Part shown: positions 22,675-41,067 of the stretch, in pieces
Layout: every line of letters begins with the position of its first letter
Position numbering within the stretch: the stretch's first letter is position 1
Virus record (IMG/VR): IMGVR_UViG_3300033111_000121
Location: 1 to 53,906 of that record
Length of the DNA: 53,906 nt
Reading direction: 5' to 3' (one strand)
Origin: a virus
The notes under the pieces: model-generated
What the model saw: only the letters and a program-made list of their open reading frames with translations
Database searches by the model: none
Told to the model about the DNA's origin: nothing
Position numbers and translations under genes: made by a program

Positions 22675-22973
22675 TAGAGATCAAGCGTGAAGAAGGGGAC
22701 AGGAGATCCTATGAGGCCATTGTTGCCGAAGCCTTCGCTGAGGAGGAAGTGGTCCCTATCCCTTACCCAATCGTTCGATCAGCTCTTGCTCTGTGGTCAC
22801 ACGTTCCGACCGATCAGAACGGTACACCGATCTGGACAGAGCTGAGAGCTATACTTGAAGACCTAGCACCATCTAACAGACAAGATGTGTTTAGGCGCTT
22901 GATCACCGCAGCCTGCGACGAAAGCAGTAAAGTCCATAGAGAACTGAGAAGAGAAGCTAGAGATAATGGCTGA
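22030..22973 (+). CDS. Tail assembly chaperone frameshift product (gpGT-like), join 22030..22602, 22602..22973
   Basis: The -1 frame extension ends at TGA 22971-22973, overlapping the tape measure ATG at 22966. Track ORF 22749..22973 is its tail. Confidence 0.65.
22596..22602 (+). other. -1 programmed frameshift slippery heptamer G GGA AAC
   Basis: An X XXY YYZ heptamer in the zero frame of the chaperone. The -1 frame is open from 22587 to 22973. A GTCGTC/GACGAC stem lies downstream (22611-22646). Confidence 0.7.
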
Positions 22974-25900
22974 TGACGTAAGATTCAACGTCGTTACCAA
23001 CGTCAAAGCTCGTGGCTTTGTCGAGGTCGCCAGTGGCTTCTACCTCGTTCAGTCTGCTGCACAGTTGGCATGGGGCGGTGTAAGCCTTGTCCGTCGAGAG
23101 ATGGACAAGTCTCTCGATACGTTCCGAGAGTACGAGATTGGTCTCATTCAGGTAGGTAAGGTTGCAGGGATCGAAGGGGAACGTCTTCGGTCCATGGGCG
23201 ACGACCTTGACTACCTGAGGACCAAGCTCGCAAAGACCCGCAAGGACGTTTACGACTCTGCCGTTGCTGCGGCCCGTCTGGGTCTCCAGGATGATCAGGA
23301 GATCACTCGTCTCGTCGAGCTGTCTTTGCGCCTCAGCAAGACGAGTGACCTCCAACCAAACGATGGTGTCCGCATCCTCGCCCGATCCTCCGCGATCTCG
23401 GGTGAGTCGCTCACCCGTCATATGGAATCGGTGGCGAACGTCATCTCGGAGCTGGGTGACAACGTGGCGGCCTCCGAGTCCGAGATCTCCGGTCTTCATC
23501 TCGAGGTCCTCAAAGGTACGGCCGCCTGGGAAACCTCTCAGCGTCAGGCGGCTGCATACGCCGCTACCCTTGCCGAGTTCAACGTGCAGGCCGAGGTCGC
23601 CGGTACGGCCATGGGCAAGCTGTTCAGGCGCATGGAGCAGGGTGTCAGGTTCCCCACCTCGAGCATTGGTGTGGCGCTCCAGGAACTCACAGGGATGGAT
23701 GCCAAGCAGCTTCGTACCCTGTATGAGCAGAGCCCGTCGAACGTGGTCAACCTCGTCATGCAGACCATCGGCGAGCAGTTCCGTTCAGGTGAAGGTCCAC
23801 GCCCCTATGTCATCGGCTTGATGGCCGAGCTTGGCCTCCAGTCCGAGAGGCAGGCCAAGGCCCTGTTGCCGATGTTCACGAACCCGGATCGTTTCCAGAA
23901 GGCCATGGAGATTGCCTTCTCACAGGATCCTGCGGTGTTCGAGAAGTCTGCACGAACCGAGCGGACTGCGTTCCACCAGCAGAAGGCTTTCGAGGAGCAT
24001 GTTGCCCTGTTCCGTAGGGACATTGGTGAGCAGCTACAGCCTCACATGAGTGAGTTCTGGATCTCTATGCAGCGCATACTCTCTCAACAGGATCCACAGG
24101 TGATTGCCGAGCGCTTCGCTAATGCCCTTGAGCTTGTTCTCTTGGGTATCGAGAAGGGCGCAAGCATGCTCGAAGGCGTCATGGACTTCATGGACTGGTT
24201 CGGTACCCCTGCGCTGATCGCTGCTGGTGGTTATGGAGCGTTCAGGGGTGTGAAGGCTGGTGGCAAGGCCTTGTTTGGTAAGCCAACCGTAGAGGCCTCG
24301 ATGGGTCGTGCTGGGGTCATGGACCTTACTGTACAGCGTGGCGGCATGTTCATGGGTCCGTACTACGATGATCTCGTCAAGAGAGAGGCCGACATGCGTA
24401 GGTCGAGTCTCATGGCAGTCGAGATGCGTAAGGACTACTCCTTGTCTGGCATGAATGAGGAGGAGATCTCCAGTAGGATGGGCAAGGTCTTTGACGAGAT
24501 GTACAAGGATCCGTCAAAGATAGCTGGATACACCGATCACAGGGCCTTTATGAAGGACTTCGACCGTGATTGGGAGAGTATCCTCCAGAAGAGGGACTCG
24601 AGACTCCACTACATGGAGCGCCAAGCCAACAAAGAGCAGGTAAAGGACGCTGCGAAGGCCTCTCAGGACGTTGCAGAGCAATCTGGAAGCCGTGATGTCC
24701 TCAAGATGCTCGGAATTGGTGGTGCAATGGCCGGTGGAGCGGCTCTTCTTGCTCCTGGAGAGGCCGAAGCGAGCGGATTGAGGCTTCTTGTCAAGTTGGC
24801 AGGGCGTGAAGGGCGCGAATTCGCCTCCAAGAGAGAGGCTTGGGACTACGTTCTTGACAATCCTGGTCTTGGTGGGGTTGTAAGGCAGGGAGAAGAGGTT
24901 CTGTGGAGTGGTAGAGCGCCTTCAAGGGCTGCTTGGGAAGCTCAGCAGATGGCTCGAGGTGGTCAATTCCAGTATGACATGCCCGAAGCCGAAGAGATTG
25001 CCCGATCCATCACTGGACAAAGAGGTGAAGGCTGGTCAAGGTTCCAGGAGTTCGAGGAACAGCTCGATAATGCCTTCTTTAGTGATGATTTCAACAACAT
25101 TGCTAGCGGTGAATGGACTCTCATCAAGCATGGTGACGTTGTTGAGATGGAGAAGGCCTCCGAGATGTTTGGTGAGAGGGCTCGAGGGATCCTCCAGGCC
25201 GAAGCAGCTTATGGTGGTCAGAGGGAAGCCACTCAAGCTCTGGGAGAGCGCCTCGAGGGATATGCGGCAGAGGCCCGCAGATACACGCAGGAGGCTGTCA
25301 GCGTCCATGGAAGGCCTGGAACCCTGGCGGAACGGTTCGCGGCGGCAGACGCGGATGTAGCGGCTTCTGCGGGCCGTGCAGCGCCGACAAGGGTGAGCAT
25401 GGAGGAGGCCCTGGAGGACATCCGGCAGCGGGACTTCGAGGAGCTGCTCGAGATGATCGGGAGCCAGCCCTCCCTCGCCCAGGGAATCCCCTCGGGCCGT
25501 GGCCGCCTGGGTGCCAGCCCCCTTGCCCGGTTCCTGGAGGGAGGCGACCTCGGCAGGGCTGGCATGAGTCCGGCCGCGAGAGCGGCTTCCGAGGCCGCCA
25601 GCGAGCGCCGCTTCCTTTCCTCTCTCGAGGAGTTCCAGGGCGCATCGATGGAGGATCTGCTCGAGCGGGCATCAACGAGTTACAGGACCGATCTCGCGGC
25701 GCGGGGAAGGACTGCCGAGCAGATCGAGGCGTCCTTTGCTCGCTGGTCCGAGCAGCCCGACTTCTTCCGGGCGCAGAGGGCTCGGCCTGTTGCCGAGGCT
25801 GGGGACCCCTCCCTCGTCATCCCCGAGTTCCTCAGCGGCGCTCGGTCAAGAGCCTTTACTCCCCTCTCCGACGATCAGATTGAGAGCCTTTCCGGCCGGC

Positions 25901-28900
25901 TGATCGAGGCGTCCAAGCAGTACCCTGAGCCTGTCAGGCGCGAGTGGGAGAAGATCGCCGACTCCCTCGGGGAGATCAATCAGAAGTACGACCTGTCCCT
26001 GTCCTTCGGGCGCTCGGGCGACAGCGAGATCCCCAAGATCCTTTTCCGCCTCAGGCAGCAGGAGTCGGCCGGGATCGGCCGCGCCGGTCAGGCTGCCATT
26101 GCCGGCGCTGGGCTCCTGGGTGCTGGCGCTTTCCTGGGACCCGAGGAGGCCGAGGCTCAGAGCGGTCGTGCCTTCTGGCAACAGGTAGCGAAGCGGATGG
26201 CCCGCGAGCGCGATCCTCACCAGTGGACCCCGGCGTACATCTCGGGAGGTGCGATCCCCGAGGACGCGACCCTCGAGCAGATTATGAAGCACACCGGCGT
26301 CAAGGGCCTGCTCGAGCGGACGCCGGGGCTCGATCCGATGGTCTTCCAGGGGTTCCCAGGCGGTCAGGGCTTCTGGGCGATGGCCCAGGAGGAGCAGGGT
26401 CGACAGGTGGGCGAGGCCTTCCTGAGGCGCTACGAGAAGAGCAAGAAGCACGGTACCGGAGATCCCCTGACTCCTGCCATGGCAGGGCTCGACGAGGGGC
26501 CTGGGTTCCTCGAGGGCGCGGTCGGCAGCATCCCAGGGGTGATTGGTATCGAGCTGGCTTTCGACGCGGCAGCCCGCCGCCTGGGGCTGTACGACAGGGC
26601 TGGTAGAGGGACTCAGGCGCTAGGGGCGCACCTCACCCGCCAGGGAAGCCTGCTGGGGCGCGTGGGGGCGGCTGGAGGCCTCCTGGGGAGGATTCCTGCG
26701 GGTGCCAGGGCGATCATCGGAGGGACGGGTCCTATCGGCCTGGGAATCGGCGGCGGCATGGCTGCCTGGGGTCTCATCAAGGGTTGGGCTGCTCGAGCCG
26801 ACCGGGGGCGTACAAGAGAAAACAGGCTCCATCAGATCGAGCAGGAGGCATTCAGGCTTCAAGAGCTTGTTGACGTTGCTCCTGGCTATCGCGGAACCAG
26901 GGCCGAGAAGCAGTTCGTTGGTGATCTGAACCTTCGTGAGCATTCCATCGACACTCTCGTAAGGATGGGTAGGACAAGAGGGTTTGCCGAAGAGAAGTGG
27001 TGGGAGTTCCTTGGTCCTTCTCTTGGTCTTGGTGGTACTGATTTCGAGGGCGACTTCGGTAGAGGGTTCTTGAAGGCCATGGAGGAGAACGAAGAGTTCA
27101 AGAACAGGCTATTCGAGTTCAGTCCTGTTGGTGGTGACGATGCCCTTATCAGGGTCATCAGCGATCTTGAGAGAAAGATCTCTGAACAGAATGAGATGGT
27201 GTCTCTGCTTGCGAGCAACTTGAGTGTTCGCAAAGAAGAGCTTGATGCTATCCTTGCCGGTGGCTTCGAGGGTAGAACCGATGCAGGGTACACCACTCTT
27301 GGTGAGGCTTTGACTGCGGCCGCTGGGGCTGGCATCTCCTATGAGCAAGGACTTGAGAACCTCAATGCTGTTGCAACCATCATGGCTCCGTTTGGCAAGG
27401 ACCGCTTCCGTGCTGTTGATGCGAAACTCCCCAAGCACCTTGCCGATGTGTTTGAGGCTGCTGGCATGGCTCAGTCAACTATTGATGAGTTGACAAAGGG
27501 TATTGGCTTTGCGGAAGAGTGGAAGGATGCACCAGAGCCTCCAAGAGCTTACGGCATGATTGTTCAGAGGCCTGATCCTGATCAGCTTGAGAAGGCAAGG
27601 GACATGCTCGCCCGCATGGATCCCAGGTTTGCGGCGACTCAGTTCATGCAGGATATGTTCGACGAGGCTGTACTTCCTTCCTATGAGTCCTGGGGGAGGG
27701 CAGGACACTTTGAATGGCGTCGTGAACATACAGCTCAGGCAATGATGGAAGGGATGGGCGTGACTTCGTTCATTGATCGAGGTCTTGATTTTGCCACTCC
27801 TGATAAGCGCATTGCCAAGAACCTCGAAGAACTTGACGAGTCTTACGAGATCGCTCTTGATGGCATCAGGAAGATTGCTGCCAAGAATGTGATCACTCCT
27901 GAGGAAGCAGCGGCAAGAACCGCAGAGGTAGACAAGGCCTACGAAAACATCAGAGACAGTATGACTGGTGGAATCGACGAGTTCATCGATCAGGCGCGTA
28001 GCCTGCTACCTTTGGGTGAGCAGATGGAGAGGTCTTACGAGGATCTTGCTGAGCTTAGAGACAACGCCATCGCTATTGCCGAGAGGTTGTTTACCGGAAC
28101 CGAGTTGAGTTCCAAGGTTGCTGCAATCCAGAGGTCGTTCAATCTCCAGGTGGAAGCTATTGGAGATGGCGTGGTCGATTCGTTTGTCGATGCTGCCGAT
28201 GGATTCAGGCCAACAGCGGAACAGTTCGACATCTCTGCTGCTCGCATCATGGAGCAGTATTGGGATGCGGTAAGCGTTGAAGGTGGAAGGACAGCAGAGA
28301 TCGACCTGTCCCGAGACCTGCAACTGAGAGGGTTGAGAGAAGGTCAGGTTCAAGACTTCATGGCCTCGGCCTTTGACCTTCTGCCCCTTGAGGAGCAGTT
28401 CCAGGAGCTTGTTGATCAGCTTGAGGAAGAGACGGAACTGACCAAGACCAATATCGAGAGGATGTTCTCAGAGGGAACCATCGATTCCGTAAGGGCTCTC
28501 GAGGATCTTGCCGAGGCAGACAGACGCTACGCCCTTCGTCTCAAGGCACTACAGGTTCAGTTCGAGGAGAGAGAGGTCCCCCTCCCCAGGCCGGCCGGCG
28601 TCTTCTCTGGGTTTGCTTACGACTACACTGAGCTTATCAAGGAGAGAGATCTCATTGGGCGCTCGAGAGCCTTTGCTCCTGGTGAGGAAGCTGCCTACGA
28701 TGCGTACCTTCAACAGATCAACAGGGCTCGCTTGGATACCGCTCTACAGATGGGCTTCCAGTCTCTTGGTGGAGCTGTAGGAGTCATTCCAGATCTCAAC
28801 AGGCTTGGTAGCGCCATACCTGCTCTTGGTCAACTCCCCGACCTGTGGAGAGACATGAAGCAGATGGCGGCCATGACACCCGATGACATGCGAGCTGCGG

Positions 28901-31900
28901 GGCTCACTCCGGGTCAGGCCAGGGCTCAGCAGGTAGCCACGGGAGCCGCGTTCGGGTCCACCATCGGTCAGGCGGTGGGTCTTGCCGCAGAGAGGCCCTA
29001 CGCGGGTCTGGGAGGCACTCTGGGTGGCGCTGTGGGCTCGCTCTGGGGTCCTCTTGGAACTCTGATCGGTACGCTCATCGGAACCGGGCTCGGATCCCTG
29101 GTCAAGCAGGGCAAGGATGAGGGTCTCGCTTCGATTGGTGGAGGCTATGGCACCTGGGCGTACATGACGAAGGACGAGAAGGGTCTGGGTGGTGCGGCCA
29201 AGGACATCGGAACGGCGGCGCTCCAGGGCTTCGAGGACGCCCTCGACATCCTCAATCTCGAGCTTTCCGGCCAGATCCCCGCCCTGTCCATCAAGGTTCG
29301 GGACGGCCTGTACACCATCTTCATCGGCAACTACCGGGGCGTGTTCAGGGATGCCAACGACGCCATCGCCGCCGCGATCCAGCAGCTCCTCAGCTACTCC
29401 GACTTCCAGGGGGACGTTGGCTACAACGCCCGCATCCTGACCCAGGGGCGCTTCAATGACGCCCAGGAGTTCGAGAGGGCTGTCAGCGCCATAGCGAAGA
29501 TCGCGGAGTTCGAGCGGGAGCTGAACTTCTCCGACGCCGGACTCGCCCTGGATGACTTCATTCGGGACATCAAGCGGGCCGCTCGGGAGATTGATGAGCT
29601 GGGTGGCAGCGCGGCGGCCGCCTACGCCATGGGAGGCCAGACGATTCTTGACCGCTTCGCCGACTTCCGGGGCTGGGATACGCGGTACGACGAGGCGCAG
29701 CGCTACAAGGACGATCTCAATCAGCAGCGCCAGGACTACATCGATTGGTTGCTCGAGCAGTATGACGAGCTGAACAGGCAGGCAGTGGAACGTGGTGAGG
29801 GTGGATTGCCGGGAGGTCCTCCTGATCGCCGCGCTGATCGTGAATCCTGGGATGAGTGGGCCAGAGATCTCGAGAGGGAGTACCAAGCGATCCCCGAGGA
29901 CACGGAGGATCCGGCGCTTCAGCGCCGCCGTGAGGACCTCGAGCTGCTCCTCGATTGGATCGAGAAGCTGACCGGCCTTCCAGCCCTCACCGATGCCGAC
30001 GCACGGCGTTACGCGGAAGGGATCACTAGGCAGGGAGAGATCGAGGATCGGGATTCGTTCCTGGCTCGCATGGGCGGTCGGGAGTTGGGGATGAGAGGAG
30101 GTCATCCGATCTGGAGGTTTGCCGATGGCGATCCGTTCTCCGAGATCCTGCTCGACTTCGAGAGGGACATGCTCCAGTTGGATGAGCTTCACAGGGCGTT
30201 CCCCGGCTTCTCCGAGGAGCTGGAGAAGGCGCGGCAGAACCTCGTCAGGCTCAAGAACGAGGGGCTCGCCGATCTCGGCAACCAGCTCCTTGGAGTGCTC
30301 GATCCCAACTGGAACTTCCTCCAGGGATTGAGGGACGGTCTGGAGGCCCTGGATCTGCTCAGGAACAACGCGGACGTGTTGCAGCAGTTGGGCTTGGATC
30401 CTTCGGAGATCGAGCGCTCAGGAGGCGTGTGGGCTCGCAACAACGTCCTCGACGTGTCGAGGTCTCTTGCCCAGGCCATCGGCAACCAGGACATCCTCAA
30501 CGAGCTACAGGCCCACGAACGACAGCTCCAGATCCAGGATTACGTTCAGAGGATTGAGTGGCTCAGGAACATGGGCGTGGTCTCAGGAGAGGTTGCCGAC
30601 AAGCTCAAGGACATTGCTCAGGTGGTCGAGGAGTCCCTGGGAGATGAGGACGTACAGCGCCGGCTCGACCCCAGGTACCAGCAGTCCATCGACATCCGAG
30701 ATCAGCTCAGGTACCAGGGCGATGCGCCGTTTAGGCGGTCCCTCCAGGAGTACGCCGATCAGGTGGCGACGATCCGCAAGTACCTCTTGCCCGAGGACTA
30801 CGCGGACCTGCTGCCGGAAGGAGAGATGAGCCCAGCCGAGAGACGGCTCAGGATAGACTACGCACGGCCGTACAGAGACGCTCTGCGGACGATCAGGTAC
30901 TCGGGGGACCTGGGATACCTGAGTCCCTACGATCGGATCGAGAAGCTCTCTGAGGAGTTCTTCGGGATTGCCGGCGAGGGAGTGCTTGGGTCTCGAGCAG
31001 ACGAACTTCCTGGCCTTGGTGAGAACCTGTTGAGAGAGATGGCCGCCGCTTATCCTGTTGGGTCTGCTCCGTATCAAGCTGTTCATGACAGGGTTGCTTC
31101 TGTTCTTGATGAGTTCAAGACAGACATTGAAGAGAAGTCTCTTGAAGAGCTTGGTATTGAGGGCAACGATCTCCTTACTCAGTTGGTCAACCTTGGAGAG
31201 AAGGCAGAAGAGCAGCTCAGAGAGTATTGGGGAGAGCTGTTCAAGTTGCTTGGTGATGGTCTTCCTGCTCCTGATAGACCTATTCCAGATGGTGGAACTA
31301 GGCCACAGCAACCTCCTATTGGTCAACCTCATAAGGTTTTTGATCCAAGAGACATAGATCTTACTGGCAAGGTTGGTGGAGTTGAGCTTTCCAAGAGGTT
31401 GTCTGCGCTAAAAATTCATCCTGCGGATCTTGATAACAGTGGGGCTCTTAGTGAATCTGAGATAGACAGGTGGGTCGAGTACGTTGGTCAGTGGGTTGGC
31501 CCTGATGGTGTAATCAAACAGATACCAAGATGGCAGAAATGGCTTGCTGATCATGGTATCTATACCCATATAAGCAGGGAAGAATTTCAGCATGGCTACA
31601 CTGAGTACGACACTCCAAGGCCTGGGCCAAGAGTTCCTTGGTATGTTACTCTTCCTCCAGAAAACCCAGATACTTTGTATTCTACAAGAGACTTCGATCT
31701 TAGTGGAAGAGTTGGTGGAGTTGAGTTGAAATCTATGTTTGATTACCTCACCCATCATCCTGGAGACAGAGATAAGAGTGGTGGCCTTAGTCAATGGGAA
31801 GTTCAAAAGTGGACTGAGATTGTCGGCAGGTTCCTTGATGATTCGGGTAACTACATAGATGTCCCCTACTGGCAAAAGTGGTTGGCCGAGAAGGGTGCTT

Positions 31901-32151
31901 ACGACCATCTCTCCCCAGAGGAGTTCTTGGCTGGATTTACTCCCTATGTTATTCCGAAACCTCCAGGTCCTCGTGTTGATGTTCACAGGGAACCTATTCC
32001 GCCTGCATCAACTCGTGGAGCTTTTGCGACAGAGCTTTTGCCTGGACTCTCAGAGAGTAGAAGTCAGAAACAGATAGAAGTTTCCCAGGAACAGCTTGTC
32101 GTGTTGAAGAAGCTCCTCGATGTTGCAGAGTCGCAGGGTCGAGTGGTATAG
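22966..32151 (+). CDS. Tape measure protein, 3061 aa
   Basis: Uninterrupted ORF directly after the G/GT pair. It has long helical regions and several Gly/Ala-rich hydrophobic segments. No enzymatic domain was recognised by eye. Confidence 0.8.
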   Translation: MADDVRFNVVTNVKARGFVEVASGFYLVQSAAQLAWGGVSLVRREMDKSLDTFREYEIGLIQVGKVAGIEGERLRSMGDDLDYLRTKLAKTRKDVYDSAVAAARLGLQDDQEITRLVELSLRLSKTSDLQPNDGVRILARSSAISGESLTRHMESVANVISELGDNVAASESEISGLHLEVLKGTAAWETSQRQAAAYAATLAEFNVQAEVAGTAMGKLFRRMEQGVRFPTSSIGVALQELTGMDAKQLRTLYEQSPSNVVNLVMQTIGEQFRSGEGPRPYVIGLMAELGLQSERQAKALLPMFTNPDRFQKAMEIAFSQDPAVFEKSARTERTAFHQQKAFEEHVALFRRDIGEQLQPHMSEFWISMQRILSQQDPQVIAERFANALELVLLGIEKGASMLEGVMDFMDWFGTPALIAAGGYGAFRGVKAGGKALFGKPTVEASMGRAGVMDLTVQRGGMFMGPYYDDLVKREADMRRSSLMAVEMRKDYSLSGMNEEEISSRMGKVFDEMYKDPSKIAGYTDHRAFMKDFDRDWESILQKRDSRLHYMERQANKEQVKDAAKASQDVAEQSGSRDVLKMLGIGGAMAGGAALLAPGEAEASGLRLLVKLAGREGREFASKREAWDYVLDNPGLGGVVRQGEEVLWSGRAPSRAAWEAQQMARGGQFQYDMPEAEEIARSITGQRGEGWSRFQEFEEQLDNAFFSDDFNNIASGEWTLIKHGDVVEMEKASEMFGERARGILQAEAAYGGQREATQALGERLEGYAAEARRYTQEAVSVHGRPGTLAERFAAADADVAASAGRAAPTRVSMEEALEDIRQRDFEELLEMIGSQPSLAQGIPSGRGRLGASPLARFLEGGDLGRAGMSPAARAASEAASERRFLSSLEEFQGASMEDLLERASTSYRTDLAARGRTAEQIEASFARWSEQPDFFRAQRARPVAEAGDPSLVIPEFLSGARSRAFTPLSDDQIESLSGRLIEASKQYPEPVRREWEKIADSLGEINQKYDLSLSFGRSGDSEIPKILFRLRQQESAGIGRAGQAAIAGAGLLGAGAFLGPEEAEAQSGRAFWQQVAKRMARERDPHQWTPAYISGGAIPEDATLEQIMKHTGVKGLLERTPGLDPMVFQGFPGGQGFWAMAQEEQGRQVGEAFLRRYEKSKKHGTGDPLTPAMAGLDEGPGFLEGAVGSIPGVIGIELAFDAAARRLGLYDRAGRGTQALGAHLTRQGSLLGRVGAAGGLLGRIPAGARAIIGGTGPIGLGIGGGMAAWGLIKGWAARADRGRTRENRLHQIEQEAFRLQELVDVAPGYRGTRAEKQFVGDLNLREHSIDTLVRMGRTRGFAEEKWWEFLGPSLGLGGTDFEGDFGRGFLKAMEENEEFKNRLFEFSPVGGDDALIRVISDLERKISEQNEMVSLLASNLSVRKEELDAILAGGFEGRTDAGYTTLGEALTAAAGAGISYEQGLENLNAVATIMAPFGKDRFRAVDAKLPKHLADVFEAAGMAQSTIDELTKGIGFAEEWKDAPEPPRAYGMIVQRPDPDQLEKARDMLARMDPRFAATQFMQDMFDEAVLPSYESWGRAGHFEWRREHTAQAMMEGMGVTSFIDRGLDFATPDKRIAKNLEELDESYEIALDGIRKIAAKNVITPEEAAARTAEVDKAYENIRDSMTGGIDEFIDQARSLLPLGEQMERSYEDLAELRDNAIAIAERLFTGTELSSKVAAIQRSFNLQVEAIGDGVVDSFVDAADGFRPTAEQFDISAARIMEQYWDAVSVEGGRTAEIDLSRDLQLRGLREGQVQDFMASAFDLLPLEEQFQELVDQLEEETELTKTNIERMFSEGTIDSVRALEDLAEADRRYALRLKALQVQFEEREVPLPRPAGVFSGFAYDYTELIKERDLIGRSRAFAPGEEAAYDAYLQQINRARLDTALQMGFQSLGGAVGVIPDLNRLGSAIPALGQLPDLWRDMKQMAAMTPDDMRAAGLTPGQARAQQVATGAAFGSTIGQAVGLAAERPYAGLGGTLGGAVGSLWGPLGTLIGTLIGTGLGSLVKQGKDEGLASIGGGYGTWAYMTKDEKGLGGAAKDIGTAALQGFEDALDILNLELSGQIPALSIKVRDGLYTIFIGNYRGVFRDANDAIAAAIQQLLSYSDFQGDVGYNARILTQGRFNDAQEFERAVSAIAKIAEFERELNFSDAGLALDDFIRDIKRAAREIDELGGSAAAAYAMGGQTILDRFADFRGWDTRYDEAQRYKDDLNQQRQDYIDWLLEQYDELNRQAVERGEGGLPGGPPDRRADRESWDEWARDLEREYQAIPEDTEDPALQRRREDLELLLDWIEKLTGLPALTDADARRYAEGITRQGEIEDRDSFLARMGGRELGMRGGHPIWRFADGDPFSEILLDFERDMLQLDELHRAFPGFSEELEKARQNLVRLKNEGLADLGNQLLGVLDPNWNFLQGLRDGLEALDLLRNNADVLQQLGLDPSEIERSGGVWARNNVLDVSRSLAQAIGNQDILNELQAHERQLQIQDYVQRIEWLRNMGVVSGEVADKLKDIAQVVEESLGDEDVQRRLDPRYQQSIDIRDQLRYQGDAPFRRSLQEYADQVATIRKYLLPEDYADLLPEGEMSPAERRLRIDYARPYRDALRTIRYSGDLGYLSPYDRIEKLSEEFFGIAGEGVLGSRADELPGLGENLLREMAAAYPVGSAPYQAVHDRVASVLDEFKTDIEEKSLEELGIEGNDLLTQLVNLGEKAEEQLREYWGELFKLLGDGLPAPDRPIPDGGTRPQQPPIGQPHKVFDPRDIDLTGKVGGVELSKRLSALKIHPADLDNSGALSESEIDRWVEYVGQWVGPDGVIKQIPRWQKWLADHGIYTHISREEFQHGYTEYDTPRPGPRVPWYVTLPPENPDTLYSTRDFDLSGRVGGVELKSMFDYLTHHPGDRDKSGGLSQWEVQKWTEIVGRFLDDSGNYIDVPYWQKWLAEKGAYDHLSPEEFLAGFTPYVIPKPPGPRVDVHREPIPPASTRGAFATELLPGLSESRSQKQIEVSQEQLVVLKKLLDVAESQGRVV

Positions 32152-32178: not shown

Positions 32179-32493
32179 ATGGCAGCGACAAAGGTACTGA
32201 GCGCACTGGCAGCGGCCGGCTCACATAACGGCGAGGAGTTCCAGGGAAAGGGTCCCCATGCGTTGTTCTACACGCGATCGGCCTCTTCCACTCTGACACT
32301 CCAGGTCAAGGACCCCGAGGGCAACTGGCAATCGCTCCAGGCTCTCTCGAGCGGCTCTTCTGACGGCGTGGTGATCGTGCATCTGGTTGACGGCCACGAT
32401 CACAGGGTCATCACTCCCAACGCGGGATTCGAATCCGAGGCCTGGATCAGCGAGGCCGGCGAGAATCCCTACAACTATAGTGGGGGAGTCTAA
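32179..32493 (+). CDS. Hypothetical protein, 104 aa
   Basis: ORF track; GAAGGAGG SD. Confidence 0.6.
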   Translation: MAATKVLSALAAAGSHNGEEFQGKGPHALFYTRSASSTLTLQVKDPEGNWQSLQALSSGSSDGVVIVHLVDGHDHRVITPNAGFESEAWISEAGENPYNYSGGV

Positions 32494-32494
32494 T

Positions 32495-32809
32495 ATGGAC
32501 TTCAAGCAGAGGTTTGCCCGAGCCTGGGATCGGGCGCAAGAGAAGGTCGGCGAGCTGACGGATGATGTCCGCGAGGGCGTCTCCCAGGTTCGGGTCGAGG
32601 TGGAGAGTCGCATCGACGATGCGTGGGAGTCTCCGACTGAGCGCCACCTGAGGAAGCAGGTTGGAACGATCCAGGAGGAGAAGCGTCAGGCGGAAGCCAG
32701 GGCGAACAGCCTCCGGGAGCAGGTCGACAACCTGACGGTCCAGCGGAATGTCGGCTGGGCGCTCTTCGTCGCGGCCGTGGCGACCTGCGTGATGATGTTG
32801 CTGCTGTAG
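32495..32809 (+). CDS. Coiled-coil protein with C-terminal membrane anchor, 104 aa
   Basis: ATG 32495 after GGGGGAG. C-terminal WALFVAAVATCVMMLLL. Confidence 0.6.
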   Translation: MDFKQRFARAWDRAQEKVGELTDDVREGVSQVRVEVESRIDDAWESPTERHLRKQVGTIQEEKRQAEARANSLREQVDNLTVQRNVGWALFVAAVATCVMMLLL

Positions 32810-32836
32810 TTTTTCCCCTTCTCACAACAGCAGTGT

Positions 32837-32876
32837 GAGGCCCTCGGCTGGGATTGTCGAGGGCCTCTTTGTTTGT
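32837..32876 (+). terminator. Rho-independent terminator
   Basis: GAGGCCCTCG / CGAGGGCCTC stem, 11-nt loop, then TTTGTTTGT. It lies between convergent genes. Confidence 0.75.
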
Positions 32877-33319
32877 CAGGGACCCTTCACATGAGCCCAC
32901 TTCTTGCCGTGGGCGATGTTGAAGATCGTTTGGTGGCTGACGCCGTGTTCTTTGGCGATAGACCTCATGCTCTTCTTCTTCAACAGGGATTTCTTGATCT
33001 CGAAAACCTGAGCCTCTGTGAGCTTCCGGGGCTGCCTCTTCCTCTTCACCATGTCGTCCATGTTGTTGGCGTGAGTGCCGAGGTAGAGGTGCTTCGGGTT
33101 GCAGCACGGAGGGTTGTCGCAGCGGTGGAGGACCATCATCCCCTCAGGGATGGGGCCGTTGGTCAGCTCCCATGCGATTTGGTGAGTGCCTTTGCGCCGG
33201 CCGTCAACGCGAGCTTGACCGTACTCTCCCGAGTCCTTGGACCCAGGCCATTCCCAGCACTCCTTGTTCTGCTTGGCCCTGGTCCAGAACCAGGTCTCGA
33301 ATCCCATTGGCGAGAGCAT
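32876..33319 (-). CDS. Free-standing HNH homing endonuclease (HNH_3-like plus C-terminal HTH), 147 aa
   Basis: CWEWPGSKDSGEYGQARVDGRRKGTHQIAWELTNGPIPEGMMVLHRCDNPPCCNPKHLYLGTHANN, then SIAKEHGVSHQTIFNI. Track ORF trimmed to ATG 33319. Confidence 0.8.
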   Translation of the reverse strand: MLSPMGFETWFWTRAKQNKECWEWPGSKDSGEYGQARVDGRRKGTHQIAWELTNGPIPEGMMVLHRCDNPPCCNPKHLYLGTHANNMDDMVKRKRQPRKLTEAQVFEIKKSLLKKKSMRSIAKEHGVSHQTIFNIAHGKKWAHVKGP

Positions 33320-33328
33320 AGCACAAAC

Positions 33329-33376
33329 GTCAACCTCTCCAGGAGGGGTTGACACGGCTCCCGAGTGTCCTGTAGT
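33329..33376. promoter_or_regulatory. Palindrome plus candidate rightward promoter
   Basis: 11-bp hairpin GTCAACCTCTC / GAGGGGTTGAC (one G-U pair) at 33329-33353 overlaps TTGACA (33349-33354). A 16-nt spacer then leads to TGTAGT (33371-33376). The 3-prime arm's complement is the HNH SD. Confidence 0.4.
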
Positions 33377-33439
33377 CTTGTTCCGCAACAACGGGTGGCC
33401 GACCCCCTGGCGCGGCCACCAGAAAGGAACGAGCTGGGG

Positions 33440-34336
33440 ATGGACAACTGGAAGCGCTTCATGGAGGCCTGGGAAGGGGACGATCCTCACTTCGTCCTCT
33501 GCCGCCCCGACAAGGCCCCGGCGACGGAGATCTGGAAGGAGATCAGCCCCTCCCCAGAGACCCACGGTGGCCCTGTGGGGATCGTTCCCTGGTCCATCGG
33601 ATGCGCGGTTGTCGATGTGGATGCAGGCGAGAGGGAGCGGAACCGCGTTGTGCGGTCGCTTGGCCCCCCGGCTGCCGAGATGCGGTCCATGAACGGCGGA
33701 TGGCACCTCTGGTACTGGCAGACCAAGCCCTTTACCAAGGGCAAGTTCGAGCACGGCGATCTCATCTGCTCCGGTGGCTACGTTGTGGTCACCGAGCCCG
33801 AGCGCCTGCTCGATCTACACAGCTTTGAGGGCAGGAGCCTCGATGTCAGGCGCACTCGAGATCATCGGTGTCTCGAGGCGGCCGCTGATGGGATTGGCAA
33901 GGGGACGAGGAACAACCCCTTCGTCATGGCTATCCGGTCAGCTCGCCGTGACGCCGTCGAGGCCCCTGCTCTTCAATGGGAGTTCGGATCCTCGATGCTC
34001 TTTGAGGAGCCGGACTTCTGGGTGAAGAACGGGGATGTGGCGACCGCCGCCCGCCTCGTCAACACCAACGAGCGGTTGGGATGTCCGCTCGACGCAGAGC
34101 AGCTTCGACAGCTCTGTGAGGAGGCATGCGGAGAGTTGTCTCCTGCGGCTTTGGAGGTCCTGGCTTTGGCCGGCGGCGAAACAGACCTTGGTCAGACCTC
34201 CAGGGCCGCTCACACTCTCGAGAGGGACCTCGAGATCGCCTCCATGCGCGATGACGGCTACACCTGGGCTGAGATCGGGGTGGAGTTCGAAATCGACCCC
34301 TCGACGGCTCACAGGGCCTATCAGAGGGTGGCGTGA
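33440..34336 (+). CDS. AEP-type primase-polymerase (Prim-Pol) with C-terminal HTH, 298 aa
   Basis: AEP motifs are present: I (CAVVDVDAGE), II (NGGWHLWY), III (HGDLICSGGYVVV). Track ORF trimmed to ATG 33440. Confidence 0.75.
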   Translation: MDNWKRFMEAWEGDDPHFVLCRPDKAPATEIWKEISPSPETHGGPVGIVPWSIGCAVVDVDAGERERNRVVRSLGPPAAEMRSMNGGWHLWYWQTKPFTKGKFEHGDLICSGGYVVVTEPERLLDLHSFEGRSLDVRRTRDHRCLEAAADGIGKGTRNNPFVMAIRSARRDAVEAPALQWEFGSSMLFEEPDFWVKNGDVATAARLVNTNERLGCPLDAEQLRQLCEEACGELSPAALEVLALAGGETDLGQTSRAAHTLERDLEIASMRDDGYTWAEIGVEFEIDPSTAHRAYQRVA

Positions 34337-35961
34337 GTGAACTTGTCCTAAGGCCCTACCAGGAGAGTGGGGTGGCTCGAGCCTGCTCAATGATGGATGA
34401 GGGGCTCAGTCCTCTTGTGCAATCTCCAACAGGGTCGGGTAAGACCATCATGGCTACGGAGATCGTGAAGCGTTCTCCAAAGCCTGTGCTGGCTATTGCT
34501 CATTCGGAGGAGATCCACGGACAAACGATAGACAAGTTTTTGAAGGCCGGCCTAAGGGTTGGGTCTATTACTTCGGATACCAGGACTGGTCAATATCTCA
34601 ATGGATCCCTATGGGGCCATGATGTTGTCGTGGCGATGCAGAAAACCGTGTGGTCTCGTCTAAAGAAGGGTCATCATCTAGGCGACTACAAGAGATTGAT
34701 CATCGATGAGTGCCACCATGTTCTTGCCAAGACATGGATGTACATCGTCAACCACTACGATATTCCCCGGTGTGGTCTCAGCGCAACCCCTTCGAGGTCC
34801 GATGGTCGAGGCCTTGGATCCCCTGATGATAGCGGCAAGCCCATCTTCGATGAGATCGTGGTGGCTGCTTTGTATAAGGAACTGATCGAGGATAATTTCC
34901 TCGTTGATGCTCCGGCCAACAAGATCTACACATGGGACATCGACACATCTGAGTTCAAGACCGCCATGGGCGACTATCAGATGGGAGGTAAGTATGGTGC
35001 ATCCAAGAAGCTCAACACTGTCAAGCGAGTTGGCGATTGCGTTGCTTACTGGATGCAACTTGCCAGAGGCAAGCGCACTCTTTGTTTTGCCTCCTCAGTC
35101 GATCACTCCCTTCATCTCGTCGAGAGGTTCATTGGACAGGGAATACGAGCTGTTCACGTTGACGGAGAAACCGACAAGGACTATCGAAGACAAGTCAAGC
35201 ATGACCTGGAAGCCGGTGACATCGACATCGTCTCCAACTATGGAATCTACACCGAGGGGTTTGACTGTGTAGAGGTAGAGTGCATCATCCTTGAGAGGCC
35301 TACCAGGCTCCCTCATCTGTACCTACAGATGGCTGGCAGAGGACTGAGACCTGCTGATCACATTGATAAGACTGATCTGATGATCATCGATCCTGTCGGT
35401 TGTGTGGCTCGCATGGGTCGCCCAACGCTCGACAGGCATTGGAGCCTTAGCAGCAATAACAAGGCTGCCAGTGAACCGGATGAAGAGGACGAGGAAGAGA
35501 CCAAGGAGTGCGGAGGATGTGGAGTTCAGTTGTCCGCTATTCCTTGCGAGGTCTGTGGCTGGGAGCCTGAGTACCCTGCGTCTATGGGTGGAGGCAAGGT
35601 AAGTCAGGATGACTGGTTTGCCACAGGAACTCTTGTCCGCCTCTCGGATCGAATCAAGGCAGAGATGGAGGAGATCCACTCTGACCCCAACAGAGACAGG
35701 TACTTGTCTTTGCTATCCCAGGCAGAGCGTAGAGGTCTCAAGTCTGGGTGGGCCTACTACAGGTACCGCGACGAGACTGGAGAAGAGCCGAACGAAATGT
35801 GGTCCTTGCCGGACCCGAGAAAGGTTGAGCCGACAGAGTTCTATGAGAGCTGTGTCGAGTTCGCAACGAGCCGGGGGTGGAAGCCAGGGTGGGCCTACTT
35901 CCGGTTCAAGGACATCTACGATCGCCCACCCACACCAGAAGAGAAAGGAGTCTACGCATGA
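34333..35961 (+). CDS. SF2 DEAD/DEAH-box DNA helicase, 542 aa
   Basis: Walker A SPTGSGKT and DECH box (IIDECHH). C-terminal CGGCG...CEVCG zinc finger. GTGA overlap with the upstream gene. Confidence 0.85.
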   Translation: MSELVLRPYQESGVARACSMMDEGLSPLVQSPTGSGKTIMATEIVKRSPKPVLAIAHSEEIHGQTIDKFLKAGLRVGSITSDTRTGQYLNGSLWGHDVVVAMQKTVWSRLKKGHHLGDYKRLIIDECHHVLAKTWMYIVNHYDIPRCGLSATPSRSDGRGLGSPDDSGKPIFDEIVVAALYKELIEDNFLVDAPANKIYTWDIDTSEFKTAMGDYQMGGKYGASKKLNTVKRVGDCVAYWMQLARGKRTLCFASSVDHSLHLVERFIGQGIRAVHVDGETDKDYRRQVKHDLEAGDIDIVSNYGIYTEGFDCVEVECIILERPTRLPHLYLQMAGRGLRPADHIDKTDLMIIDPVGCVARMGRPTLDRHWSLSSNNKAASEPDEEDEEETKECGGCGVQLSAIPCEVCGWEPEYPASMGGGKVSQDDWFATGTLVRLSDRIKAEMEEIHSDPNRDRYLSLLSQAERRGLKSGWAYYRYRDETGEEPNEMWSLPDPRKVEPTEFYESCVEFATSRGWKPGWAYFRFKDIYDRPPTPEEKGVYA

Positions 35962-36308
35962 CGAAGAAGAAGGCCCCACCAATCACGATGGACCCACCGC
36001 CCGCCCTCGAGGCTGACGAGGAGACCCAGGGGGACCAGGAACAGCAGCAGGAGGCCCAGGCGGCCGCTCAGGCTGCCCAGGAGTCCTCCAGGGACGCCTC
36101 GGCGCTGGAGATCGACCACCTCGACCTCAGGCGCTCTAAGAGCGCCCTGAATCAGACGGAGCTGGTCTACGACAAGCTGATCCGTCTTCGCTTCCAGGAA
36201 AGCGACGAGGTTGCTCAGGTGTGTCTCGAGGCCGCTCAGAATGCGGTCAGCGCCCTCGTGGTCCTGCGGCAGAACATCGATCTGCTGCGGGTGGGGATGG
36301 CTCGCTAG
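35958..36308 (+). CDS. Hypothetical acidic Gln/Ala-rich protein, 116 aa
   Basis: ATGA overlap with the helicase stop. Confidence 0.55.
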   Translation: MTKKKAPPITMDPPPALEADEETQGDQEQQQEAQAAAQAAQESSRDASALEIDHLDLRRSKSALNQTELVYDKLIRLRFQESDEVAQVCLEAAQNAVSALVVLRQNIDLLRVGMAR

Positions 36309-36499
36309 TGGGAGCCGCTCAGTGGACGGTGTTGATCGTGCTCACGCTTTCGCTTGGGCTCGGTCACGCCGTTTACATCACCACCCTTCGTTACAACAAG
36401 CAACTGAGCAGCGCTTATGTTATCTCGGCATTGGTCTTTCAACTTCTGTTGGGAGCTATGCTGGCTGCATTCGTGTTGCTCGCTGTGAGAGGAGGATAG
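36308..36499 (+). CDS. Small two-helix membrane protein, 63 aa
   Basis: GTG 36308 shares one nt with the upstream TAG. Hydrophobic segments WTVLIVLTLSLGLG and VISALVFQLLLGAMLAAFVLLAV. Confidence 0.5.
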   Translation: MGAAQWTVLIVLTLSLGLGHAVYITTLRYNKQLSSAYVISALVFQLLLGAMLAAFVLLAVRGG

Positions 36500-36503
36500 A
36501 GAA

Positions 36504-37415
36504 TTGGCACTGAAACTATCTGAGGAGGCTCCATCACGTCCGGTGATAGGCTTGGTTTACGGCAGAGGAGGTAGTCGAAAGACATCCTTCGCCAACACGG
36601 CAAAGAGGCCTTTGGTTATTGCGTTTGACCAAAGAGGCTACAGCCGTTCATTTCGCCAGTCGGAAGCAAGGGTGTATGTCAATGCCTGGGAAGAGATCTC
36701 GGCCATTGAGCCGTCAGACCTCAAGGGGTACGACACACTGATTGTCGACACCCTTGGCAGGGCTTTGGATTCCGCAGCCGAGAAGGCGATCAGGGACTCA
36801 CCCAAGAATGCCATCCGTTCCACAGGAGCGTTGAGCAAGCAAGGGTACGGTGCGGTCAAGAAGATGTTCAGGGATTGGCTCTTCAAGTTTGTTGACCACA
36901 TCGATGTCATCCTGATTGCTCAGGATCGCACGGTTCCGAATCCCGAGGATGCGGACGTGGATATGTCGATCCCCGAGATTGTCGGTGGAACCAAGACACT
37001 GATCCACGAGGAGTGCGACTTCATTGGTTGGGCTCGAGCTGCTGATGGAGACAAGTTCTTTGTGTCCTTCAACCCCTCCGCAAGGTGGGTTGCGAAGAGT
37101 TCGCCGGCTGGTCTCAGCACAATCGAGATCGCTCCTGATGACGAGAACCTGATGGCTGGCATCATCGAGAGAGTCAAGGCCAGCATTGCCGACATGGCTA
37201 ACTCGGAGAAGGCCGAGGCAATCAGTGAGGCTCGAGCGGCCCTGTCTTCGTGCAAGGACGTGAAGGCGCTCAACAAGGTCACCAAGGCTGCGATGAAGGC
37301 AGAGGTCGTCACAATCCTCTGGCAGGAGATCGCCACCCTTGGAACCGAACTCGGTTACGAGTGGGATCGCGAGAAGAAGGTGTGGGCTGAGGCTCAGGAG
37401 GAATCCAGTGAATGA
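36504..37415 (+). CDS. AAA_24/Sak4-like RecA-fold ATPase, 303 aa
   Basis: TTG start 7 nt after GAGGAGGA. P-loop-like GLVYGRGGSRKTS and Walker B-like TLIVDTLG. Confidence 0.6.
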   Translation: MALKLSEEAPSRPVIGLVYGRGGSRKTSFANTAKRPLVIAFDQRGYSRSFRQSEARVYVNAWEEISAIEPSDLKGYDTLIVDTLGRALDSAAEKAIRDSPKNAIRSTGALSKQGYGAVKKMFRDWLFKFVDHIDVILIAQDRTVPNPEDADVDMSIPEIVGGTKTLIHEECDFIGWARAADGDKFFVSFNPSARWVAKSSPAGLSTIEIAPDDENLMAGIIERVKASIADMANSEKAEAISEARAALSSCKDVKALNKVTKAAMKAEVVTILWQEIATLGTELGYEWDREKKVWAEAQEESSE

Positions 37416-37587
37416 TCTGGAAGAGGCTATCGAGTCAATGGAGTCTGCCCTTGTTATTGTTGGTGGCTTTGATCTTGATGGTCTTACGGATGATCAAGAC
37501 AAGTGGATCATGAGTTCGTATAGGAAGCTGCAAAGCTCCATCGACGATCTCAGGGACGCTATCGAGAGCATAGATGATGGCTCTTAG
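37408..37587 (+). CDS. Small acidic helical protein, 59 aa
   Basis: GTG 37408 lies 6 nt after AGGAGG. It is the tail of track ORF 37339..37587. Confidence 0.5.
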   Translation: MNDLEEAIESMESALVIVGGFDLDGLTDDQDKWIMSSYRKLQSSIDDLRDAIESIDDGS

Positions 37588-38269: not shown

Positions 38270-38460
38270 ACAAGAGAGAGGAAAGGAAACACATGAAGAA
38301 CGCTGTCTCCAAGTTCGAGAGGGCGTTCATCAATGGCACCGGGGCTCGCTTTACCAAGGAAGAGACCTATGCCATCGTCAGCGCCCTTACCGAGGGTGCC
38401 TGGGACAAGGAAATGGGCAAGGCTGTAGCGGAGGCAACTCGCAATGCAGTTGTCCAGTGA
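38266..38460 (+). CDS. Hypothetical protein, 64 aa
   Basis: ORF track; ATGA overlap. Confidence 0.5.
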   Translation: MNKREERKHMKNAVSKFERAFINGTGARFTKEETYAIVSALTEGAWDKEMGKAVAEATRNAVVQ

Positions 38461-38797: not shown

Positions 38798-38810
38798 AAA
38801 GGGAGGCAAG

Positions 38811-39110: not shown

Positions 39111-39202
39111 GCTTGGTGATTGGCATAGCGTTGTATATCGCTTTGTCGTTCATGTTCTGCTTTGTCTTCCACCTTTGGATGGAGGAAGATAGACAATGCT
39201 AG
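39104..39202 (+). CDS. Small hydrophobic peptide, 32 aa
   Basis: The ATG overlaps the mazG stop region. Sequence MLSLVIGIALYIALSFMFCFVFHLWMEEDRQC. Its stop overlaps the next ATG region. Confidence 0.35.
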   Translation: MLSLVIGIALYIALSFMFCFVFHLWMEEDRQC

Positions 39203-40733: not shown

Positions 40734-40760
40734 GCACAGGCTTAGAAAAAGGAGAAGAAG

Positions 40761-41048: not shown

Positions 41049-41067
41049 TTCTGTGCTAGGGTTTGGT

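What the first reader, a model, noticed from the sequence alone, without database searches (positions are those of the whole stretch)
31336..31990. Tandem 113-aa duplication carrying two canonical EF-hand loops at the tape measure C-terminus
Two diverged repeats are present:
- VFDPRDIDLTGKVGGVELSK...WQKWLADHGIY...PRPGPRV
- YSTRDFDLSGRVGGVELKS...WQKWLAEKGAY...PKPPGPRV

Each contains a 12-residue loop that fits the EF-hand consensus D-x-[DN]-x-[DNS]-G-x-[ILV]-x-x-x-E. The loops are DLDNSGALSESE (31426-31461) and DRDKSGGLSQWE (31765-31800), exactly 339 nt apart. The segment is visibly more AT-rich than the rest of the gene.

Calcium-binding modules at the distal end of a tape measure protein are not a standard feature. 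They could couple ejection or tail-tip assembly to divalent cations, or act like dockerins in binding.
Basis: partly seen in the sequence, partly recalled or inferred. Interest (0 to 1): 0.62.

Follow-up and report, generated by a model that had tools for sequence, protein, structure and literature searches.

The report
Duplicated calcium-loop domain on tape measure tip
The far end of a giant phage tail tape measure protein carries two copies of a very rare 105-residue domain with four calcium-type loops. Its only relatives sit beside the DNA-ejection genes of short-tailed phages, so it probably helps the first-ejected tail part fold or act in the host envelope, but metal binding is untested.

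Summary
Residues 2791-2903 and 2904-3016 of the 3061-aa tape measure protein (TMP, 22966-32151) are a tandem duplication: 49% identity, E 2e-33, dN/dS about 0.2. The segment has a sharp GC drop (GC3 0.385 against 0.676).

Each copy has two 12-residue EF-hand-type loops, 13 residues apart, so there are four in all.

"Canonical EF-hand" is too strong:
- Pfam EF-hand scores are 13-20 bits against cut-offs near 25.
- Only one loop fits PROSITE PS00018.
- An AlphaFold model (pLDDT 72) shows loop-helix units with no entering helix, joined to a small alpha/beta subdomain.
- That model has no PDB or viral fold match.

The second loop is nevertheless conserved. D1 and E12 are invariant, and positions 3, 5, 8 and 9 are conservative in five of the six known domain sequences.

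Only four homologous proteins exist among 1.8 billion representatives. The three whose context could be read lie just after the nozzle gene and before ejection-protein genes in SU10-like podophage contigs.

Best reading: a horizontally acquired, probably Ca2+-stabilised module on the TMP end that leaves the tail first. Metal binding is inferred, not shown.

Earlier notes from this scan report other EF-hand modules in TMPs of other genomes. This domain family is distinct from them.

The parts
22966..32151 (+). Tape measure protein gene, 3061 aa
   Evidence: Single open frame. PF10145 at aa 86-250 above its cut-off. PHROG TMP families and an upstream tail assembly chaperone. tblastn matches to annotated TMPs.
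31000..32151 (+). Low-GC C-terminal segment of the TMP (GC about 0.45-0.50, against 0.59-0.63 on both sides)
   Evidence: Composition profile. GC3 of the repeats is 0.385 against 0.676 for the rest of the gene.
31336..31674 (+). Repeat 1 (aa 2791-2903): a domain core of about 105 aa plus a Pro-rich linker
   Evidence: BLASTP against repeat 2 gives E 2e-33. Profile match E 1.3e-48.
31675..32013 (+). Repeat 2 (aa 2904-3016)
   Evidence: E 2.4e-46.
31351..31386 (+). Loop A of repeat 1, DIDLTGKVGGVE. EF-hand-type ligand pattern (D1, D3, T5, G6, V8, E12).
   Evidence: Conserved as D-x-D-L-[TS]-G-x-V-G-G-x-E in four of six domain sequences.
31426..31461 (+). Loop B of repeat 1, DLDNSGALSESE. The only strict PROSITE PS00018 match.
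   Evidence: Weak Pfam EF-hand hits centre here. In the model the exiting helix starts at loop position 10.
31690..31725 (+). Loop A of repeat 2, DFDLSGRVGGVE
31765..31800 (+). Loop B of repeat 2, DRDKSGGLSQWE
   Evidence: EF-hand_6 scores 16.1 bits, below its cut-off.
31522..31575 (+). Trp-rich conserved core of repeat 1 (IPRWQKWLADHGIYTHIS). It lies in the best-predicted part of the domain.
   Evidence: Invariant W69, L70, G74 and H78 in the family alignment. Block-mean pLDDT of 76-89 over residues 41-100. Coordinates checked.
32014..32148 (+). C-terminal tail of 45 aa after the repeats, with a predicted amphipathic helix (VSQEQLVVLKKLLDVA)
   Evidence: This helix is the only stretch in the single-sequence AlphaFold model whose pLDDT reaches about 70. 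By analogy with the TMPs of T5 and 80alpha, it is the likely contact with the tail-tip hub (inference, PMC10038345).

Best explanation
The C-terminal (tail-tip) end of this siphophage's tape measure protein (TMP) carries two tandem copies of a rare phage virion domain of about 105 residues.

Domain layout:
- The N-terminal half holds two EF-hand-type 12-residue loops, each followed by a short helix. They are only 13 residues apart, so these are loop-helix units rather than helix-loop-helix units.
- The C-terminal half is a small Trp-rich alpha/beta subdomain.

Origin: the module was probably acquired by horizontal transfer and then duplicated. Its only relatives are single-copy domains in proteins encoded directly after the nozzle gene and before the ejection-protein genes of SU10-like podophages.

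Proposed mechanism (inferred):
- The loops bind Ca2+, or another hard divalent or trivalent cation, and this stabilises or drives folding of the module.
- A TMP trimer would then present six such domains in the tail-tip lumen.
- As with T5 pb2, this end is expelled first when the tip opens. Metal-dependent (re)folding in the cation-rich envelope would help pull out, anchor or activate the leading end of the TMP.

Shown here: the duplication, loop conservation, purifying selection, rarity and synteny of the homologues.

Inferred: metal binding, domain placement in the tip and the role in ejection.
For: - The duplication is real and both copies are under selection: E 2e-33 and dN/dS 0.20.
- Four loops with the EF-hand ligand pattern cluster within 150 residues.
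- Loop B positions 1 and 12 are two of only twelve invariant columns across six domain sequences that share 28-48% identity. Positions 3, 5, 8 and 9 are substituted conservatively in five of the six.
- In the AlphaFold model made with the alignment (pLDDT 72, pTM 0.68), helices start at loop position 10 (loop B) and 11 (loop A), as in EF-hands.
- The profile of the two repeats recovers true EF-hand repeat proteins at E 4e-6 and 3e-5 in 1.8 billion sequences, and the alignments span both loops.
- hhalign of the family profile against EF-hand repeat units of P0005 gives P 6e-5 and 65% probability for loop B plus its helix.
- The 13-residue spacing equals that of lanmodulin EF-hands (PMC10232371). 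There is a weak LanM hit.
- Dx[DN]xDG-type sites bind Ca whatever their flanking structure (PMC3123361).
- Homologues P0002, P0007 and P0003 all lie after the adaptor and nozzle-like genes and before an ejection-protein gene (phrog_4287).
- In T5 the TMP is a trimer. Its C-terminal domain sits in the tip, is expelled first into the periplasm and may need refolding (PMC10038345).
- The GC3 drop points to foreign origin.
Against: - No Pfam EF-hand model reaches its gathering score, and the homologues give no EF-hand hit at all.
- The model has no entering helices, and its loop region is only moderately confident (block-mean pLDDT 52-72).
- P0003 has a 5-residue insertion in loop B. Loop A is degenerate in P0007 and P0008. 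Gly6 of loop B is not conserved outside the window.
- The hits on EF-hand repeat proteins owe their E-values to summing many weak repeats; the best single stretch scores 13 bits.
- The family has only six domain sequences, so conservation statistics are thin.
- The function of the podophage homologues is itself unknown. In cultured relatives the same gene slot holds unrelated small proteins.
- The phage is uncultured, so nothing is known about its cation dependence.
Confidence: 0.55

Rival explanations
1. The domain is a protein-protein contact or plug module that docks the TMP end into the tail-tip hub (or, in podophages, into the nozzle channel). The acidic loops are structural turns or hub-contact surfaces and bind no metal.
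For: - TMP C-termini contact the hub in T5 and 80alpha, and in T5 the contact is mainly electrostatic (PMC10038345).
- The podophage homologues are encoded immediately after the nozzle gene, the slot used by needle or plug proteins in P22-type gene orders (gene order from general knowledge).
- EF-hand HMM scores are below threshold.
- The best-conserved and best-modelled part is the Trp-rich alpha/beta half, not loop A.
Against: The exact EF-hand ligand pattern (1, 3, 5, 12, with a hydrophobic residue at 8) is kept in loop B across sequences that are otherwise only 28-48% identical. D1 and E12 are invariant. That is hard to explain by a turn alone. This reading and metal binding are also not mutually exclusive.
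Confidence: 0.25
2. The module is a Ca-dependent binder of a host envelope component (peptidoglycan, LPS core or a periplasmic protein). In that sense it acts like a dockerin or a lectin and anchors the ejected TMP tip.
For: - TMPs and podophage ejection proteins often carry envelope-directed domains such as lysozyme, M23 peptidase and transglycosylase (PMC10038345; SU10 gp20 in PMC9509320).
- Two loop-helix units resemble the dockerin F-hand pair.
- The Trp-rich surface motif WQKWLA..G.Y.H could be a ligand site.
Against: - No match to dockerin, PG_binding, LysM, SH3, CBM or lectin models at E 10.
- No fold match in the PDB or in BFVD.
- No enzymatic partner domain was detected anywhere in the TMP.
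Confidence: 0.12
3. The EF-hand resemblance is a chance feature of an acidic, Gly/Ser-rich repeat. The segment is a linker-like spacer that merely adds length to an already very long TMP.
For: - Short EF-hand patterns give false positives.
- Pfam scores are below threshold.
- P0004 and P0009 in the exhaustive search are low-complexity false hits.
Against:
- dN/dS is 0.2 between the copies.
- The homologues share a defined 105-residue domain with 12 invariant columns.
- AlphaFold gives a compact fold with pTM 0.68.
Confidence: 0.04

Closest known systems
EF-hand calcium-binding motif (Pfam PF00036, PF13405, PF13202; PROSITE PS00018)
   Same: - 12-residue loops with oxygen ligands at positions 1, 3, 5 and 12, Gly at 6 and a hydrophobic residue at 8.
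- The exiting helix starts at loop positions 10-11.
- The loops occur in pairs.
   Different: - No entering helix in the model.
- HMM scores are below the gathering cut-offs.
- Only one of four loops passes PS00018.
- The pair is fused to an alpha/beta subdomain that EF-hand proteins lack.
Lanmodulin-type compact EF-hand arrays (NF053806; PMC10232371), and the 23-residue-period EF-hand arrays of P0005
   Same: Adjacent loops are separated by about 12-13 residues, so one short helix serves both loops. In lanmodulin, metal binding drives a disorder-to-order transition, which is the behaviour proposed here.
   Different: - 11.4 bits against a cut-off of 135.
- No Pro at loop position 2.
- Fewer carboxylates per loop.
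- Two loops per domain rather than four.
- Part of a virion protein, not a periplasmic metal carrier.
Dockerin type I (PF00404) and other Dx[DN]xDG loop contexts (PMC3123361)
   Same: Duplicated loop-helix (F-hand) units without entering helices. The Ca site tolerates varied or absent flanking structure.
   Different: - No Dockerin_1 hit.
- Position 5 is Ser or Thr, not Asp, so the strict Dx[DN]xDG motif is not met.
- Shorter spacing between the loops.
- An extra alpha/beta half.
- No cohesin partner is known.
Accessory domains at TMP C-termini (T5 pb2 C-terminal peptidase domain, PMC10038345; mycobacteriophage TMP Rpf and M23 motifs, from general knowledge)
   Same: An added globular module at the TMP end that sits in the tail tip and is expelled first into the envelope. 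In both cases the module is mosaic in origin.
   Different: No enzymatic signature here. The module is a tandem pair of a putative metal-binding domain, and I found no paper describing such a domain in a TMP.
Post-nozzle proteins of SU10-like podophage contigs (P0002, P0003, P0007; P0008 context unknown)
   Same: True homologues of the domain (E 9e-23 to 4e-4), with the same loop B signature HP[AG]D-x-[DN]-x-[DNS]...E.
   Different: - One copy per protein.
- The domain is combined with Pro/Gly-rich regions and with a second conserved module (W..YL...NP[ST]ARP...FN..A..AF) that is absent from the window.
- These are free-standing genes, not part of a TMP.

Membership tests
Phage tape measure protein (PF10145 PhageMin_Tail) | HMM score above the gathering cut-off, and position after the tail assembly chaperone gene | tested here: met
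   47.8 bits against 33.2. PHROG TMP families and phrog_313 chaperone upstream. tblastn to annotated TMPs.
EF-hand (Pfam PF00036, PF13405, PF13202, PF13499) | HMM score at or above the gathering cut-off | tested here: not met
   Best scores are 13-20.5 bits against 25-30. Only the window's two copies give any hit, and none of the four homologues does.
EF-hand | 12-residue loop with ligands at positions 1, 3, 5 and 12, Gly6 and a hydrophobic residue at 8 | tested here: met
   All four window loops fit. Loop B fits in five of six family members, with D1 and E12 invariant. Strict PS00018 is met by one loop only.
EF-hand | Helix-loop-helix: both an entering and an exiting helix | tested here: not met
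   The AlphaFold model (pLDDT 72) shows exiting helices H16-21 and H40-47 but coil before both loops. His-Pro precedes loop B. Confidence in this region is moderate only.
EF-hand | Measured Ca2+ binding | not testable with these tools
   Needs ITC, Tb3+ luminescence or a structure with the ion bound.
Dockerin type I (PF00404) | HMM match, and a fold of about 70 aa made of two F-hand repeats only | tested here: not met
   No Dockerin_1 hit at E up to 10. The model has an added beta-hairpin and alpha/beta half.
Dx[DN]xDG calcium loop (PMC3123361) | Linear motif D-x-[DN]-x-D-G | tested here: not met
   The window loops read DxDx[ST]G. Asp at position 5 occurs only in the homologues P0002 and P0007, and those lack Gly6.
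Lanmodulin (NF053806) | Equivalog score. Four EF-hands spaced 12-13 residues apart. Pro at loop position 2. | tested here: not met
   11.4 bits against 135. The 13-residue spacing is met within a repeat. There is no Pro at position 2 (criteria from PMC10232371).

The most novel reading that the evidence does not exclude
The domain is a metal-gated folding switch shared by long-tailed and short-tailed phages. In this reading it is kept unfolded or strained inside the tail channel. When it reaches the cation-rich envelope it binds Ca2+ and snaps into its fold. That acts as a ratchet, comparable to the calcium-driven folding of secreted RTX proteins or the metal-induced ordering of lanmodulin, and it pulls the tape measure protein (or the podophage plug or ejection protein) out of the virion and commits the particle to DNA delivery.
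Probability: 0.12. Interest if true: 0.75.

Novelty: new variant of a known kind. Interest (0 to 1): 0.5.

Why it matters
How the leading end of a tape measure protein (TMP) leaves the tail and becomes active in the host envelope is only now being resolved, and for very few phages (T5, PMC10038345). Many phages need calcium to infect, often without a known molecular reason.

A defined, small, expressible module with four EF-hand-type loops on the first-ejected end of a TMP would make that link directly testable in vitro. It is shared with proteins encoded next to the ejection genes of short-tailed phages.

The finding also adds an undescribed domain family with an orphan predicted fold. It is a further case of module exchange between TMPs and podophage tail or ejection proteins.

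Other notes from this scan suggest that calcium-type loops recur in ejected phage proteins. If that holds, it would turn an isolated oddity into a theme.

Tried and rejected
Searches for relatives:
- Word-index search with the TMP C-terminus found only the protein itself.
- tblastn of the module against 50,697 phage records gave no match, and neither did P0007 or P0008.
- Pattern scans of viral contigs (four scans), genome contigs and metagenome contigs found no further relatives.
- The family therefore stays at six domain sequences.

Structure:
- Single-sequence AlphaFold was useless (pLDDT 39).
- Fold searches of the better model gave nothing.
- Model coordinates are not exposed, so ligand geometry could not be measured.

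Family and sequence checks:
- PDB sequence search gave only noise.
- NCBIfam gave only a non-significant lanmodulin hit.
- P0004 and P0009 from the exhaustive search were rejected as low-complexity or repeat artefacts.
- The second conserved module of the podophage proteins was sought in the window and is absent.
- The small proteins in the same gene slot of cultured relatives (Paracoccus phage KLEP18-1 gp17, Rhizobium phage RHph_N3_2 EVB98_011) are unrelated.

Tools and access:
- The context of P0008 could not be looked up, because the index search did not return it.
- The whole TMP exceeded the tblastn size limit.
Full report
**Setting**

The window is a complete virus record of 53,906 bases with direct terminal repeats. 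It encodes the following:
- a large terminase (16603-18351), capsid (47093-48859), portal (49815-51089), SSB and a helicase;
- one open frame of 3061 codons at 22966-32151.

That frame is a tape measure protein (TMP):
- PF10145 scores 47.8 bits against a cut-off of 33.2 at residues 86-250.
- Several PHROG TMP families match, and a tail assembly chaperone gene lies upstream.
- The N-terminal 478 residues hit annotated TMPs by tblastn.

The nearest terminases belong to phages of Burkholderia, Vibrio, Ralstonia and Variovorax, at 34-36% identity. This is a distant, uncultured siphophage. A proteobacterial host is only a weak guess.

**The observation**

The two copies, 31336-31674 and 31675-32013 (aa 2791-2903 and 2904-3016), align at 49% identity with E 2e-33. 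At the nucleotide level they are 56% identical. Synonymous sites are saturated (dS about 2.5) and dN/dS is about 0.20. The duplication is therefore old and both copies are kept by selection.

The segment is AT-richer than the rest of the gene. GC is 0.466 against 0.583, and third-position GC is 0.385 against 0.676. The low-GC tract starts near 31000 and runs to the stop codon. This fits a mosaic, horizontally acquired C-terminal module.

The minus-strand ORF 31408-31986 is best ignored, given the selection seen in the plus frame.

Thirteen residues upstream of each named loop lies another 12-residue loop with the same ligand pattern:
- DIDLTGKVGGVE at 31351-31386;
- DFDLSGRVGGVE at 31690-31725.

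Each repeat thus carries a pair of loops, and the tandem carries four.

PROSITE PS00018 occurs once, also here. Shuffles of the TMP expect 0.006 and 0.015 matches respectively.

**Is it an EF-hand?**

By the family's own tests it is not a member:
- Pfam EF-hand models give 13-20.5 bits against cut-offs of 25-30, and only for the window's copies.
- Three of the four loops fail the strict PROSITE pattern.
- AlphaFold without an alignment was uninformative (pLDDT 39).
- With the 6-sequence family alignment it gave pLDDT 72 and pTM 0.68.

The secondary structure of that model, by residue number within the repeat, is:

| Residues | Element |
|---|---|
| 1-15 | coil (contains loop A, residues 6-17) |
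| 16-21 | helix |
| 22-39 | coil (contains loop B, residues 31-42) |
| 40-47 | helix |
| 49-54 and 60-64 | beta-hairpin |
| 65-72 | helix |
| 81-87 | helix |
| 88-95 | strand |

Both loops therefore have an exiting helix that starts at loop position 10 or 11, as in EF-hands. Neither has an entering helix, and loop B is preceded by His-Pro. The loop region has block-mean pLDDT of only 52-72.

**Does it work like an EF-hand?**

The evidence here is better.

An exhaustive HMM search of 1.84 billion representative proteins found only four true homologues: P0002, P0003, P0007 and P0008, with E-values from 9e-23 to 4e-4.

In the six-sequence domain alignment only 12 columns are invariant. Two of them are positions 1 and 12 of loop B, and two more are the His-Pro just before it. 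The other loop B positions in five of the six sequences are as follows:

| Loop B position | Residues seen |
|---|---|
| 3 | D/N |
| 5 | S/D/N |
| 8 | L/I/V |
| 9 | S/D |

Exceptions weaken it:
- P0003 has a 5-residue insertion in loop B.
- Gly6 of loop B is not kept in the homologues.
- Loop A is intact only in the four closer sequences.

Three further observations bear on the question:
- The same profile also reached two proteins that Pfam confirms as strong EF-hand arrays, P0005 and P0006. The alignments span both loops. No single stretch exceeds 13 bits, so the significance comes from summing repeats.
- A profile-profile comparison of the family's N-terminal half with EF-hand units of P0005 aligned loop B and its helix with P 6e-5 and 65% probability.
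- The 13-residue gap between the loops matches the unusual 12-13-residue spacing of lanmodulin EF-hands (PMC10232371). NCBIfam gave a non-significant lanmodulin hit across both loops.

[quoted passage not shown] The missing entering helices therefore do not argue against binding.

I put the chance that at least loop B binds Ca2+ or a similar cation at about 60%.

**Where the relatives live**

All three homologues whose context could be read lie on contigs with SU10-type portal, capsid and adaptor genes: P0002 in L001, P0007 in L002 and L003, and P0003 in L006.
- Upstream of each sits a protein of about 525 aa (phrog_3287) that cultured relatives annotate as "putative nozzle" or "stabilization protein".
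- Downstream, one or two genes on, sits a phrog_4287 "DNA ejection protein".
- The L001 adaptor matches the SU10 adaptor structure 7z47.

In SU10 the needle detaches and ejection proteins leave the head to extend the channel across the periplasm (PMC9509320). The homologues therefore occupy a slot used by plug or ejection components, although their own role is unknown. In cultured relatives the slot holds unrelated small proteins.

The podophage proteins have one copy of the domain plus a second conserved module that is absent from the window. Only the loop-bearing domain was exchanged. Their genes are GC-rich (0.65-0.68), so they are not the direct donors of the window's AT-rich copy.

**Mechanism**

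In T5 the TMP is a trimer. [quoted passage not shown]

By analogy, which is inference:
- Three chains carrying two domains each would place six modules at the tip of this phage's tail.
- The last 45 residues include a predicted helix. It is the likely hub contact.
- I propose that the loops bind Ca2+ and stabilise or drive folding of the module once it is outside.
- That would help extraction, anchoring or activity of the leading TMP end.

Rivals:
- A metal-independent docking or plug domain is the main one.
- A Ca-dependent envelope-binding module is possible but has no profile or fold support.
- Chance is disfavoured by the statistics above.

**Novelty**

I found no paper that describes an EF-hand-type module in a TMP. 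One study looked for the PROSITE signature in the structural proteins of a phage and found none (PMC5889276).

Earlier AI notes of this scan report EF-hand modules in TMPs and in injected giant proteins of other genomes. They are unchecked here and are not evidence. By sequence look-up they do not share this domain. They do suggest that the theme is not unique to this window.

I class the finding as a new variant of a known kind: an accessory domain on a TMP tip that uses a known metal-loop motif, but in an undescribed, very rare domain family with an orphan predicted fold.

**Limits**

- There are only six domain sequences.
- The structure model is of moderate confidence.
- No model coordinates were available.
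- There is no cultured phage or known host.

Noticed in passing
window 32179-42500: The TMP gene is not followed by distal tail genes. An HNH-type ORF on the minus strand, a helicase (34333-35961), an AAA_24 protein (36504-37415) and other replication genes come next. The capsid (47093-48859) and portal (49815-51089) lie far from the terminase (16603-18351), so the structural module is split.
   Followed up: partly
window 24706-24780 and 26081-26166 (TMP aa about 581-605 and 1039-1067): Two Gly/Ala-rich hydrophobic stretches are each followed by a (P)GxEAEA turn...GGAALLAPGEAEASG... and ...GAGAFLGPEEAEAQSG.... They may be membrane-insertion segments.
   Followed up: no
window 25250-26900: The TMP is compositionally mosaic. 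One block has GC 0.65-0.70, others have 0.50-0.55, and the C-terminal module has 0.45-0.47. This suggests assembly of the giant gene from several sources.
   Followed up: no
L002 and L003 (ENA scaffold of 67,060 bases): The same structural module, including P0007, occurs twice on one scaffold, at 2766-24067 and 49980-67060. The scaffold is probably a concatemer of a genome of about 47 kb.
   Followed up: no
L002 14146-17811: A 1221-aa virion-module protein combines an N-terminal phrog_5880 region with a C-terminal stretch that matches integrase families (phrog_1 at E 1.5e-8). This is an odd fusion inside a tail or ejection gene block.
   Followed up: no
L006 1049-3035: The SU10-type portal gene is broken into at least four short ORFs. 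This is probably frameshift error in a long-read assembly, so P0003's gene boundaries deserve caution.
   Followed up: no
P0002, P0003, P0007, P0008 (outside the window): Besides the loop domain, these podophage proteins share a second conserved module, W..YL....P.G..N..P.PG...NP[ST]ARP...FN..A...AF. It has no Pfam, PHROG or NCBIfam match. In P0003 it follows the loop domain instead of preceding it.
   Followed up: partly
P0004 (1574 aa, outside the window): This highly repetitive Ser/Glu/Lys-rich protein scored E 1e-13 against the repeat profile. The score comes from 17 copies of LSESDVDKFNEIVDSFIG, which mimics loop B's tail and exit helix. I judged it a repeat artefact, not a homologue.
   Followed up: partly
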